Shown here piece after piece: positions 2,084 to 56,566 of a stretch of DNA of 64,000 bases. Position 1 is the stretch's first letter. The number at the start of each line of letters is the position of its first letter. A program made the position numbers and the translations under genes. The DNA lies in contig CP068257.2 of the NCBI GenBank assembly GCA_009914755.4, positions 19,648,001-19,712,000 on the forward strand, in the 5' to 3' direction. This stretch comes from the human T2T-CHM13v2.0 reference genome, Homo sapiens. The notes under the pieces are model-generated. The model was not told where the DNA came from. It worked only from the letters and a program-made list of their open reading frames with translations, and searched no databases.

Positions 2084-2290
2084 CGATTGGTGAACCTGAA
2101 AGTATAGATTGGTATAATCCTCAAGGAGAGAAGATAATTTCAACACAGAGGGTAGTAGTGCAAAAGGAAGGTGTTAGGTCACGGTTAACCATCTACAATG
2201 CAAATATAGAAGATGCAGGGATATATCGTTGTCAAGCAACAGATGCCAAAGGACAAACACAAGAAGCTACAGTAGTTTTGGAAATTTACC
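2084..2290 (+). CDS. NCAM2: NCAM2 coding exon (tentatively exon 2; Ig-like domain 1). Encodes (A)[68 protein letters not shown](Q); split codons at both ends.
   Basis: Polypyrimidine tract and acceptor ...ctctttgcag|CG at 2082-2083. Donor C|gtaagt at 2291. The 207-nt open frame continues in phase into the next exon. The peptide matches the NCAM2 Ig1 sequence as I recall it. Confidence 0.88.
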
Positions 2291-2929
2291 GTAAGTAATG
2301 TATTTATATGTTTTAGTTTATTCAATTTCAGTTGCTTATAAATAACCGAAAAAATAAAATGTTTGATAACACTTATTAAGAACTATGTGCTTTGAAAATA
2401 AATATCAGTTTATTTATGCTTTACCAGAGTGTATCTTAGAATAGAATAGCTAACAGATAATAAGTGGTTATAAACATATATAGGGCATCAATTATATTAA
2501 ATAATATTAATAAAAATGTTTTCATTTTCTCAAGCCATTAAGAATTCACTGGGTATATAGAGAATAGTGGTTTATTTAGTGGTATGATATTTATTCAGCA
2601 TTTTTTTTTTCACTGTAAAATAGAAGGTCATGATTAGAATAAATGAAAATGTGTGACAGCACTGACCATTGTAGAATGAGAATCTGGGGAAGGGTCAGTG
2701 AACAAGAGTAGTCAGAAAGTTGAAACTGATCTAGTAGCCAATAATATTGAGTCAGGATTCTTTACCACTAAGTGTTTTTATTAGCAAAGCTTTCCACATT
2801 TGCACTTCATTTTATGTCCTGGGATGGATTTCTTCCTATGTTCCTTTCTCCTCCTTATATTTAAGAACCATTAACCTGTTTAGGAACATTGAAATCTGTT
2901 GACTCCTGCATTTTAAAGCAAGCTATCCC

Positions 2930-3115
2930 AATTACTTTCGTGACCTTGAGCAAATCATGTAACCTCTCTGTCTTTAGTTTCCTCATATATAAACTGAGGA
3001 TAATAATGGTACCTATGTGATATATGGAGTTTGAGTACTACCTTAAATTATATTGCATAAAGTACTTACAACAATGCCTTACGATTAATAGGTAGTTAGC
3101 ATTTCTACCAATGGT
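2930..3115 (-). mobile_element. MIR SINE fragment (ancient mammalian-wide interspersed repeat).
   Basis: The MIR core motif is present in reverse orientation: ...cttgagcaaatcatgtaacctctctgtctttagtttcctcatatataaactgaggataataatggtacctat... Confidence 0.5.
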
Positions 3116-3558
3116 AAATTATATATATATTAGGAATGCAAGCCCTTAAATCATCTCATATCTGTAGCTTTGTGTTTTGTTTGTTATTCTAGAAATAGGA
3201 TATGAAAAACAAAGTCGGAACATTCCTACAGTAGGACTTCCTGTTTGATGACCAACGCAATTTGTGGGCACATTGTTGCTCTTGTGTTTCCTGATTTGGA
3301 ATTTTTCCCTCCCATTTGATTCTGAGCTTCCGAAGAAATGATATTTTCCTAATTTATGTAACCCCCTAGAGTATCTATTTCACAATAGCAAATAATTAAA
3401 TTGAAATGGTCATTTTATAGATATAATGTTTGGAAATACTTCTTTATTTTAAATGATGCAAAAGAAGAATTGTGACATTTGCAAAGGTAAAAAAAATTTT
3501 TGCAAGAACAATTCATTACTTCTGTGAGAATTTCTCATCAAGCATAAATATCCATGTT

Positions 3559-3582
3559 CACTCATTCATTCATTCATTCATT
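3559..3582. repeat. (CATT)n tetranucleotide repeat.
   Basis: cactcattcattcattcattcatt. Confidence 0.9.
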
Positions 3583-4158
3583 AAAGACACTTATTAGGTG
3601 TGTATCCACTATAATTCTGAGTCCTAGCCAGAGACAGACAGACAATAAATAAACTGAAACAGATACATAGATGCTAGCTAAACATGCTATGGAATCCTAT
3701 GGAAAATAAATTACCTGGGGTAGAGAGATAGAGAACCTTGAAATGGAAAGGAATATTGCTATTTTATATAGGCAGGTTGGATAAGAATCTGAATGAATTG
3801 AAGGCGGTGCAAATGCCCTGTGGTGAGAACAAACTTGGAATGTTCAAGGAACCTCCAAGAAGACAGTTTTCCTGAGTGACAAGGAAGAGAGAGGAGAAAT
3901 TGAGATTGGAGTTGAGGAGATACACTCCAGTTTATACAGAACCTCATATGGCATTGAAAGATCTTTGGATTTTATTCTCAGTGAGATAGGAAGGTATTAG
4001 GGAGAAGTAGATTATCTAGTTTAAGATTTTAAAGTATCTAGGTTTCCCTAATTATTTTATTATAGTATCAATAGAGTCTGGATTATGTTATTGGGAGAAA
4101 TAAGCAATGATACTTTTGTGATTTGTGATTTGTGATTTGTTTTACTTTGTTGATACAG

Positions 4159-53536: not shown

Positions 53537-53697
53537 GAATGGCAAGCTCATTGAAGAAAATGAGAAGTACATATTGAAAGGGAGCAATACAGAACTCACT
53601 GTCAGGAACATAATCAATAGTGATGGTGGTCCTTATGTCTGCAGGGCCACAAATAAGGCAGGAGAAGATGAAAAGCAAGCTTTCCTCCAAGTCTTTG
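53537..53697 (+). CDS. NCAM2: NCAM2 coding exon (tentatively exon 6; Ig3 C-terminal half). Encodes (R)[53 protein letters not shown](V).
   Basis: Acceptor ttcttctttag|G. Donor G|gtaagt at 53698. 161 nt. Phase is consistent with exon 5 (AG|G = Arg) and exon 7 (G|TA = Val). Confidence 0.88.
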
Positions 53698-54432
53698 GTA
53701 AGTATTATAGCATAGTGGCTAAAACTGTTATGTCTATTGGAAGATCAGAGTGAAATTCTACTCTAATCATTTGAACTATTTAAACTTTCCATATTAAATC
53801 TGTTTCCTCTTCTCTGTAATATGTTTTTTAAATTTCAGCTACCAGATAGAATTTTTTGAAGAATAACGTAAAATTACATATGCAAATTTTTGTAAGTCAT
53901 TGATATGCTTACAGAAGCTGGAAAAAAATAATTTAAATTACACCTAGTGGGGTTTGTCATCTGTGTCTGTAAGGGTGGATCTCTGTAAGTCTCTAAATGA
54001 CACATGTTAGGATCAGTTTTACTTACAATATAGTTCAAAAGGGCACATTTTTAAGGCTACAATTTAAAAACATTGACATGTAACTATACTTAAATATTTG
54101 CTTTCATTTAACTAAATGAAAATATAAGATAAATATCTTCCATATTTACCAAGAGCCATATTATCTTATTTGGGTAACTTATAGAGCATATAAAACTAGT
54201 ACTTTACAGAAATATAATGACGTAGCTTCAATTATGTTTACAAGAAGAAAGACAGTGATGGCAGTGGGTGCTTCTAATAGAATTTTTCCCTTTAATTAGT
54301 GTAACACTAAAAAATATATGCCCTATTAACATTTAATATGTTTTCTCCAACTTTAAAAACACTGTTATTGAAATGCTTTCACAACAAAAAGAGGGAAAAG
54401 GAAGGAAGGAGAAATCTGTTAGAATAAGAAGG

Positions 54433-54605
54433 ACTGGGGCCTGTTGTGGGGTGGGGGGAGTGGGGAGGGATAGCATTTGGAGATATACCTAATGTTAAAT
54501 GATGAGTAACTGGGTGCAGCACACCAACATGGCACATGTATACATATGTAACTAACCTGCACGTTGTGCACATGTACCCTAAAAAAGTATAATAAAAAAA
54601 AAAAG
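54433..54605 (+). mobile_element. 3'-terminal ~170-nt fragment of a young-ish L1 with poly-A tail.
   Basis: ggactggggcctgttgtggggtggggggagtggggagggatagcatttggagatatacctaatgttaaatgatgagtaactgggtgcagcacaccaacatggcacatgtatacatatgtaactaacctgcacgttgtgcacatgtaccctaaaaaagtataataaaaaaaaaaa. Confidence 0.8.
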
Positions 54606-56420
54606 AAGGACCAGTGTTTGCAGTTGACAGGTGCAGAGTGCCCCTTACACTGACCATGAGATGAATGGTAATCCCTGCGTGGACACGCCCTCTGCAGACT
54701 GGCCCTGTAGTCACTGCTGGAAGCATTTTCTGAGCTAGAGAGATATTTATAAAGCTTATTTTCAAGTGGAGTGACAAGGAGAATAAACAGCTATACCAAA
54801 ATGTATTAAAATAAAAAATACAATTTTAAAAGTAGAGATGTTTTGAGAAAGAAATTGGATAAATCAGGAAGCATTGAATAAAGAGAAGTATTGTTTTGGA
54901 TAGCATAGTGTTTGGAAAGTTATTCAGCAGGATAATGTTTAGGTGATGTTCAGAATGATGATCTTCTAATGATCAGAAGTAGGCCAAGCTAAGAGCCTGG
55001 AGAAGATTGTTCACTTACAGGGAAAAGTAAATATACTTAACATTTTTAGAAATTATAGAAAGTCCCTAACTTGTTCTAGCAGTGTTCCCCACTTGAAAAT
55101 ATTTTTTCTATAAAACCTACAAAATTAAATAAGTATGATTCAGTATAAAAATAATCATATTAGAAATAGTATTGTGTGAGATTATTCCAAAGGATAGATG
55201 GTCTTAATCTGCCTCAGTGTACTCATCTGAAATAGTATTTACATCGTTTTTATCAGGATTGCAGTGAAAAAGAAAAAAGATTTTTTACATTTCTGATATT
55301 TTCATCCTTTCAAGTAGAACATAATACATGAAAATTTTACATGTTATGTTATTGTTATAATCCCTTTTGTGTAGTAACATTCAACAAACTTTTGTTGCTC
55401 CTGACACAAAATTGTATGCATATTGTGGGAATATAACTAAATCTATTAAAGTTAATGAAATAAAGAGTGAATTGTTAAAAATTCTGTATGCTGTTTTTCT
55501 GATACCAAGAATGTTATTTTCTGAGCTTAAGAACAACTTATTTGTGTTTCTTTGTTAAATGTATTAAAATATATAAAAAGTAACTCACACTGAAATAATG
55601 AGTACTTGATTGTATCCATTTTATATCTAAACAAGCAAACATTTAGGAAATACAAATAACACAGATTTCAAAAAATAAAGCTCTCTGGAACTATGTAAGT
55701 TTATGGAGGGACATATTTTAATATTAAGATAATTAAAATTAGTAGACATAATGCTTTTCTTTTTATACAATTGATGATTAAAAATTAGTTACGTTGTCTA
55801 GTATATTGTTAAGTAAACTGAAGTCAAAATAAATCAAGTGGAATAATATATATAAGTAAAGTAAATATATTTACTTAGTAAATGTTTCAAAATTTTATAT
55901 GATTCTACTTGCTACATTTTCAGGATATATCATTTACTTCTTTGGTGAAATTGTTAAAGCTTAAGAGAGAATTAAACCAATTGTGTGTGCATGTGTCTGT
56001 ATAAATATATTCATGTGTATGTATGTGTATATATACATATATGTGCACACATATGCACCCATATGCATGTGCCTTTAAAGGAAGAAATTTTGATTTTGTG
56101 GCTTTAAGATAGGAAAATAAATCATGAGATGACTTTTAAATTGGCAGAATTTTGAAACAAATTATAATTTGGATGTTGGTTTCTAAGTCACCTCAAGTTA
56201 TTTTGTATAATGGTAACAGATGAGTTTTATTTCCTAAATTTTTTTTCCTGTGCTATTCAACTGTCCTGGTACGTCTGTAAGGCAAAGCAGGCCACTGTAA
56301 TTCTACAAAGCTAATAATATCATACTATACTATAGTAGACTTAAACACCCATCATGACTTTTGTCTGAGAAGTAATATTTTCCTCCAATACCGGTTGAGT
56401 AATATATATATTCTTTACAG

Positions 56421-56566
56421 TACAGCCTCACATAATACAGCTTAAAAATGAAACTACATATGAGAATGGTCAAGTCACACTCGTATGTGATGCGGAAGGG
56501 GAGCCTATTCCAGAAATCACTTGGAAAAGAGCTGTGGATGGCTTCACGTTCACTGAAGGCGATAAG
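56421..56566 (+). CDS. NCAM2: NCAM2 coding exon (tentatively exon 7; Ig4 N-terminal half). Encodes (V)[48 protein letters not shown].
   Basis: Acceptor ttctttacag|TA. Donor AAG|gtaacc at 56567. 146 nt, ending in phase 0. Confidence 0.88.

What the first reader, a model, noticed from the sequence alone, without database searches (positions are those of the whole stretch)
2084..56566. The window is vertebrate intronic DNA carrying six NCAM2 Ig-domain exons, so the six-frame ORF track is largely irrelevant
Six short open segments have canonical acceptors (polypyrimidine tract plus AG) and donors (GTAAGT, GTTAGT, GTAAGC, GTAGGT, GTAAGT, GTAACC). Their split-codon phases interlock exactly (207, 144, 138, 118, 161 and 146 nt). 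Joined, they give a continuous peptide, [306 protein letters not shown], which is Ig1 to the first half of Ig4 of an NCAM-family protein. I recall it as human NCAM2. Everything else in the window (Alu, L1, MIR, MaLR, microsatellites) is typical primate intron content. This reframes the window: no prokaryotic system is expected here, and the long 32-kb and 11-kb introns explain the sparse coding density.
Basis: partly seen in the sequence, partly recalled or inferred. Interest (0 to 1): 0.55.

Follow-up and report, generated by a model that had tools for sequence, protein, structure and literature searches.

The report
Primate NCAM2 gene segment, six exons
The window is ordinary primate (almost certainly human) chromosomal DNA holding six consecutive exons of the known nerve-cell adhesion gene NCAM2, separated by long repeat-filled introns; nothing here is new.

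Summary
Six + strand segments (2084-2290, 4159-4302, 9996-10133, 42271-42388, 53537-53697, 56421-56566) have the stated lengths, AG acceptors behind polypyrimidine tracts, and the stated GT donors. Their codon phases interlock. Spliced, they give 304 residues that are 100% identical to the PDB NCAM2 chains 2WIM (residues 1-257) and 2XY1 (residues 165-304). An NCAM1 chain scores far lower. Named NCAM2 orthologues from other vertebrates are 59-94% identical, and NCAM1 proteins 46-49%.

The surrounding DNA looks like a primate intron:
- CpG observed/expected is 0.20.
- There are at least 12 Alu copies.
- An L1 ORF2 remnant is about 97.5% identical to human ORF2p.
- Two MIR copies, a MaLR LTR and several microsatellites are present.
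- No Rfam family matches, and the only ATG/GTG/TTG-initiated ORF of at least 150 aa lies in the L1 remnant.

Small corrections: the peptide's first two residues (TA) are not fully encoded in the window, Ig1 is incomplete, and no seventh exon is present. Human versus another ape, and the chr21 location, could not be tested. Verdict: already known, low interest.

The parts
2084..2290 (+). NCAM2 coding exon, 207 nt. It encodes the C-terminal ~70 residues of Ig1 (IGEPES...VLEIY plus the first base of Q). A phase-1 intron lies on each side. Acceptor ctctttgcag|CG, donor ACC|gtaagt.
   Evidence: identical to 2WIM residues 29 onward
4159..4302 (+). NCAM2 coding exon, 144 nt, first half of Ig2 (QKLTFREV...TTISD). 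Acceptor ttgatacag|AA, donor ACA|gttagt. Phase 1 on each side.
9996..10133 (+). NCAM2 coding exon, 138 nt, second half of Ig2 (NRFAML...IVIVN). Acceptor ctttctttccag|AT, donor ATG|gtaagc. Phase 1 on each side.
42271..42388 (+). NCAM2 coding exon, 118 nt, first half of Ig3 (VPPAIS...AISWF). Acceptor ctctccttcag|TG, donor CAG|gtaggt. Phase 1 in, phase 2 out.
53537..53697 (+). NCAM2 coding exon, 161 nt, second half of Ig3 (RNGKLIE...FLQVF). Acceptor ttcttctttag|GA, donor TTG|gtaagt. Phase 2 in, phase 1 out.
56421..56566 (+). NCAM2 coding exon, 146 nt, first half of Ig4 (VQPHIIQL...FTEGDK). Acceptor attctttacag|TA, donor AAG|gtaacc. Phase 1 in, phase 0 out.
   Evidence: identical to 2XY1 residues 95-142
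10134..42270 (+). 32,137-nt intron between the Ig2 and Ig3 exons. It carries a MaLR LTR (10690-11046, -), an L1 ORF2 remnant (19642-20154, +) and Alu copies at about 22929-23211, 29240-29528, 34433-34738, 35439-35716, 36900-37008 and 37256-37522.
42389..53536 (+). 11,148-nt intron inside Ig3. It carries Alu copies at about 44966-45204, 46857-47132, 49048-49326, 49638-49918, 49946-50239 and 52000-52264, plus a (TA)~107/(AG)~20 microsatellite at 49383-49645.

Best explanation
The window is a 64-kb stretch of a primate, most probably human, NCAM2 gene on its sense strand. It holds six consecutive coding exons. By my recollection of the gene model these are RefSeq exons 3-8, but the numbering was not tested here. 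After ordinary spliceosomal splicing they encode the end of Ig1, all of Ig2 and Ig3, and the first half of Ig4 of neural cell adhesion molecule 2 (OCAM/RNCAM). NCAM2 is a neuronal cell-surface adhesion protein with five Ig and two FnIII domains. Each Ig domain is built from two exons. The introns between domains are phase 1, the classic immunoglobulin-superfamily layout also seen in NCAM1. The rest of the window is intron filled with retrotransposon remnants (Alu, L1, MIR, MaLR) and microsatellites. No prokaryotic or viral system is present. Shown here: the exons, splice signals, phases, 100% protein identity to solved NCAM2 chains, the repeat content and the CpG depletion. Inferred: that the PDB chains are the human protein (my knowledge of Kulahin et al. 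2011, plus PMC5997747 for this group's use of human NCAM2, UniProt O15394), that the species is human, and that the locus is 21q21.
For: Exon coordinates, lengths, splice sites and an uninterrupted 304-codon spliced reading frame were verified. The per-exon tblastn E-values are 1e-16 to 5e-41. The peptide is 100% identical to PDB NCAM2 chains 2WIM (query 1-257) and 2XY1 (query 165-304). The other NCAM2 constructs also match in register: 2V5T, 2XY2, 2VAJ, 2JLL and 2XYC. Pfam finds I-set, Ig_3 and ig domains in 3-4 stretches. Named NCAM2 orthologues are the best hits in the 5.8-billion-protein collection (59-94% identity), while NCAM1 proteins are 46-49%. At least 12 Alu copies match an Alu consensus at 72-91% identity over nearly full length. 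An L1 ORF2 remnant has 159 of 163 residues identical to human ORF2p, PDB 8SXT. MIR, MaLR and microsatellites are present. CpG observed/expected is 0.20, with TG and CA in excess. GC content is 30-37% over most of the window. No Rfam family matches. There is only one ORF of at least 150 aa, and it lies in the L1 remnant. PMC5997747 cites the mapping of human NCAM2 to 21q21 and gives UniProt O15394.
Against: Nothing contradicts the identification as NCAM2. The limits are as follows. No vertebrate genome could be searched, so the chromosomal location and the species (human, or another ape or Old World monkey with an identical protein segment) are inferred. The PDB search tool gives molecule names but not source organisms.
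Confidence: 0.97

Rival explanations
1. The window is the orthologous NCAM2 segment of a non-human primate (ape or Old World monkey) rather than human.
For: The only species-level evidence is 100% protein identity to the PDB chains over 304 residues. Such a conserved protein could be identical in close relatives. Alu and L1PA-type elements are shared by catarrhine primates.
Against: Perfect identity to the crystallised (human) protein over 304 residues. By prior, human DNA is by far the most common primate sequence met in scans. The only other primate in the protein hits (Propithecus, a lemur) is 95% identical over a short part.
Confidence: 0.08
2. The exons belong to the paralogue NCAM1 or another Ig-superfamily adhesion gene, not NCAM2.
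For: NCAM1 chains (1QZ1, 1EPF) and many IgSF proteins give significant hits. NCAM1 has the same two-exons-per-Ig layout (my knowledge).
Against: NCAM2 chains match at 100% identity (575 bits), against 256 bits for NCAM1 Ig1-3. NCAM1 proteins are only 46-49% identical.
Confidence: 0
3. The window is a processed pseudogene, a duplicated non-functional copy, or an assembly chimera rather than the functional NCAM2 locus.
For: A 68-bp degenerate copy of the start of the last exon lies at 59107-59174, which shows that local duplication has occurred.
Against: Introns are present, so this is not a processed pseudogene. All six exons are intact and free of stops. They have canonical splice sites and encode the exact protein that was crystallised.
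Confidence: 0.01

Closest known systems
Human NCAM2 (OCAM/RNCAM; UniProt O15394; gene at 21q21)
   Same: The 304 encoded residues are identical to solved NCAM2 chains covering Ig1-Ig4. The domains are of the I-set Ig type. The setting is long, repeat-rich, AT-rich introns.
   Different: No differences were detected. Only part of the gene is in the window. The signal peptide, the start of Ig1, the second half of Ig4, Ig5, the FnIII domains and the membrane anchor lie outside it.
NCAM1 gene (paralogue)
   Same: The architecture is the same: two exons per Ig domain, with phase-1 introns between domains (my knowledge of the NCAM1 gene). The proteins are homologous (1QZ1 at E=4e-75).
   Different: Protein identity is only about 46-49%. 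No counterpart of the NCAM1 VASE mini-exon was looked for or seen in the 7.4 kb after the Ig4 first-half exon.

Membership tests
NCAM2 gene (vertebrate neural cell adhesion molecule 2) | The encoded protein is orthologous to NCAM2 rather than to NCAM1 or other IgSF members | tested here: met
   100% identity to PDB NCAM2 chains 2WIM and 2XY1 over all 304 residues. NCAM1 1QZ1 scores 256 bits against 575. Named NCAM2 orthologues are 59-94% identical and NCAM1 proteins 46-49%.
NCAM2 gene (vertebrate neural cell adhesion molecule 2) | Tandem I-set immunoglobulin domains, each with the conserved cysteine pair | tested here: met
   Pfam I-set 3.5e-56 in 3 stretches and Ig_3 in 4 stretches. The cysteines in YRCQA, VVCRV/YRCEG, FSCRA/YVCRA and LVCDA are visible in the translation.
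NCAM2 gene (vertebrate neural cell adhesion molecule 2) | Spliceosomal exon-intron structure with two exons per Ig domain and interlocking phases | tested here: met
   There are six exons with AG/GT boundaries. The inter-domain introns are all phase 1, and the spliced frame is open for 304 codons. The domain limits taken from the PDB constructs 2VAJ, 2XY2, 2V5T and 2XY1 fall at the exon A/B, C/D and E/F junctions.
NCAM2 gene (vertebrate neural cell adhesion molecule 2) | Remainder of the protein present (Ig5, two FnIII domains, TM or GPI anchor) | not testable with these tools
   These parts lie outside the 64-kb window. tblastn with longer NCAM2 orthologues finds no further exon in 1-2083 or 56567-64000.
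NCAM2 gene (vertebrate neural cell adhesion molecule 2) | Genomic location on human chr21q21 and agreement with RefSeq exon coordinates | not testable with these tools
   No vertebrate genome collection is available. A 43-mer across the exon-5 donor is absent from the prokaryotic genome and metagenome collections. The 21q21 mapping is taken from the literature cited in PMC5997747.
Primate genomic DNA | Presence of Alu SINEs and L1PA-type LINEs, with CpG depletion | tested here: met
An L1 ORF2 C-terminal segment has 159 of 163 residues identical to human ORF2p. CpG observed/expected is 0.20.

The most novel reading that the evidence does not exclude
The 68-bp degenerate copy of the Ig4 first-half exon at 59107-59174 keeps its TTTACAG acceptor and runs into an in-frame TAG. 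It could act as a cryptic or 'poison' exon, or as a splicing decoy, that modulates NCAM2 expression. It lies in the intron whose NCAM1 counterpart holds the regulated VASE mini-exon. No evidence of use was obtained, and no good donor site was noted after it.
Probability: 0.03. Interest if true: 0.3.

Novelty: already known. Interest (0 to 1): 0.04.

Why it matters
This matters only for triage. The window is eukaryotic (primate) genomic DNA from a well-characterised gene. Any prokaryote-style reading of its ORFs, repeats or promoters would therefore be spurious, and other first-stage findings from this window should be read in that light. It adds nothing to what is known about NCAM2.

Tried and rejected
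- **More exons.** I looked for further NCAM2 exons with tblastn of bird, marsupial, tree-shrew, lemur and sturgeon NCAM2 proteins. No hit to the Ig1 first-half exon appeared in 1-2083, and none to the Ig4 second-half exon in 56567-64000. The only extra hit was the degenerate exon copy at about 59.1 kb.
- **Structured RNAs.** The Rfam gathering-threshold scan of the whole window found nothing, so no intronic snoRNA or miRNA was detected and no Alu reached the SRP threshold.
- **Pfam on long ORFs.** A Pfam scan of ten of the longest stop-to-stop ORFs found no family, including the L1 ORF2 C-terminal piece. That piece is recognised only by the PDB ORF2p sequence.
- **Possible L1 ORF1.** An ORF at 63431-63688 looked to me like L1 ORF1, but it has no PDB match at E<=0.01 and no Pfam match. 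I dropped that reading.
- **Origin as contamination.** An exact 43-mer across the exon-5 donor gave no match in genome contigs or metagenome contigs.
- **Paralogue.** I considered NCAM1 and rejected it on identity.
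Full report
**Observation.**
I read the flanks and anchored both ends of each piece. The exons are:
- 2084-2290 (207 nt)
- 4159-4302 (144 nt)
- 9996-10133 (138 nt)
- 42271-42388 (118 nt)
- 53537-53697 (161 nt)
- 56421-56566 (146 nt)

Each is preceded by a pyrimidine-rich tract ending in AG. The 914 joined bases, read after the first two (which complete a split codon), give 304 codons with no stop. 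The introns measure 1868, 5693, 32137, 11148 and 2723 nt.

The initial T is not encoded upstream of 2084. The A is a split codon x|CG that needs a G from the preceding exon. Both agree with the 'FFTCTAIGEP' seen in NCAM2 orthologues.

**Identity.**
The 304-residue translation is identical, residue for residue, to PDB chains named neural cell adhesion molecule 2. 2WIM covers query 1-257 and then diverges only into its tag. 2XY1 covers query 165-304. The shorter constructs 2VAJ, 2XY2, 2V5T, 2JLL and 2XYC match in register. The NCAM1 Ig1-3 chain 1QZ1 scores 256 bits against 575 for 2WIM.

In the 5.8-billion-protein collection, the best hits that carry a descriptive name are NCAM2 from birds (83%), tree shrew (94%), hamster (93%), rabbit (91%), a marsupial (87%) and fishes (59-75%). 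Some top hits are labelled only 'hypothetical protein'. NCAM1 proteins are 46-49% identical. Pfam finds I-set, Ig_3 and ig domains in three to four stretches.

From my own knowledge, these PDB entries are the human protein (Kulahin et al., Structure 2011). PMC5997747, from the same group, works with human NCAM2 (UniProt O15394) and cites the mapping of the gene to 21q21.

**Anatomy.**
The limits of the crystallised constructs serve as domain boundaries. On that basis:
- Exon A encodes the last ~70 residues of Ig1.
- Exons B and C encode Ig2.
- Exons D and E encode Ig3.
- Exon F encodes the first half of Ig4.

The introns that separate domains (A/B, C/D, E/F) are all phase 1. The intron within Ig2 is phase 1, the one within Ig3 is phase 2, and the one after exon F is phase 0 (derived). 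This is the standard immunoglobulin-superfamily layout and, to my knowledge, the same as in NCAM1.

tblastn with longer NCAM2 orthologues finds no exon for the start of Ig1 in 1-2083. It also finds none for the second half of Ig4 in 56567-64000. The window therefore holds exactly six exons. By my recollection of the gene model they are RefSeq exons 3-8. That numbering was not tested.

**Surroundings.**
- GC content is 30-37% across most of the window, rising to 42% in the last 4 kb.
- CpG is at 0.20 of expectation, with TG and CA in excess. This is the signature of methylated vertebrate DNA.
All lie between 22.9 and 52.3 kb, inside the two long introns.
- The stretch 19642-20154 (+) translates to 163 residues, of which 159 are identical to residues 1059-1221 of human LINE-1 ORF2p, PDB 8SXT.
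- The only ATG/GTG/TTG-initiated ORF of at least 150 aa in the window (19693-20157) lies inside that L1 piece.
- A remembered MIR consensus matches 2901-3079 (-) and 60844-60981 (+).
- A remembered THE1B (MaLR) LTR consensus matches 10690-11046 (-) at 76% identity over 362 nt.
- Tandem Repeats Finder reports (AGAT)13, (TA)~107, (AG)20, (AC)19.5 and others.
- Rfam finds nothing at gathering thresholds.

The caveat is that three of the repeat consensus sequences came from my memory. The E-values (1e-20 to 1e-114) rule out chance.

**What could not be tested.**
No vertebrate genome is among the searchable collections. The chromosomal placement and the choice between human and a very close relative therefore rest on three things: perfect protein identity, the presence of catarrhine-type repeats, and prior likelihood. 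An exact 43-mer spanning the exon-5 donor is absent from both the prokaryotic genome collection and the metagenome collection. This says nothing about the window's source.

**In passing.**
A 68-bp stretch at 59107-59174 is 92.6% identical to 56414-56481. That is the last 7 bases of the intron (TTTACAG) plus the first 61 bases of exon F. It follows a short 21-bp tandem repeat. Read in the exon's phase, it reaches a TAG a few codons after the similarity ends. It is most simply a decayed local duplication. Whether it is ever spliced was not testable.

**Verdict.**
The finding is correct in both observation and interpretation. The sequence is a known gene in ordinary intronic context. It is useful only as a flag that prokaryote-oriented analyses of this window do not apply.

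Noticed in passing
window 59107-59174 (+), compared with 56414-56481: A 68-bp degenerate copy (63 of 68 identical) of the last 7 intron bases plus the first 61 bases of the Ig4 first-half exon lies 2.5 kb downstream in the next intron. It keeps the TTTACAG acceptor. It reads [22 protein letters not shown] in the exon's phase. It directly follows a 21-bp tandem repeat (59043-59112).
   Followed up: partly
window 19642-20154 (+): An L1 ORF2 C-terminal remnant with 159 of 163 residues identical to human ORF2p (PDB 8SXT residues 1059-1221), so a fairly young primate L1. The window's only ATG/GTG/TTG-initiated ORF of at least 150 aa (19693-20157) lies within it. By eye, a second and more diverged ORF2-C-terminal-like stretch lies at 20502-20837 (+); I did not test it.
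   Followed up: partly
window 22929-52264: All ~12-13 Alu copies sit in the two long introns, and none lie in the first 22 kb or the last 11 kb. Three lie nearly head to tail on the - strand at 49048-50239. Between the first and second of these is a (TA)~107 plus (AG)~20 microsatellite at 49383-49645.
   Followed up: no
window 24001-36000 and 48001-52000: There is a strong negative AT skew (-0.15 to -0.19, T-rich + strand) in these blocks. This may reflect antisense retrotransposon content, but the cause was not examined.
   Followed up: no
window 60001-64000: GC rises to 0.42 against about 0.30-0.37 elsewhere. The region contains a MIR copy (60844-60981) and an (AC)19.5 microsatellite (61386-61424). 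An ORF at 63431-63688 that looked L1-ORF1-like to me has no PDB or Pfam match. The cause of the GC rise was not identified.
   Followed up: partly
window 10690-11046 (-) and 2901-3079 (-): A MaLR (THE1/MST-like) solo LTR lies just downstream of the Ig2 second-half exon, and a MIR copy lies in the first intron.
   Followed up: partly
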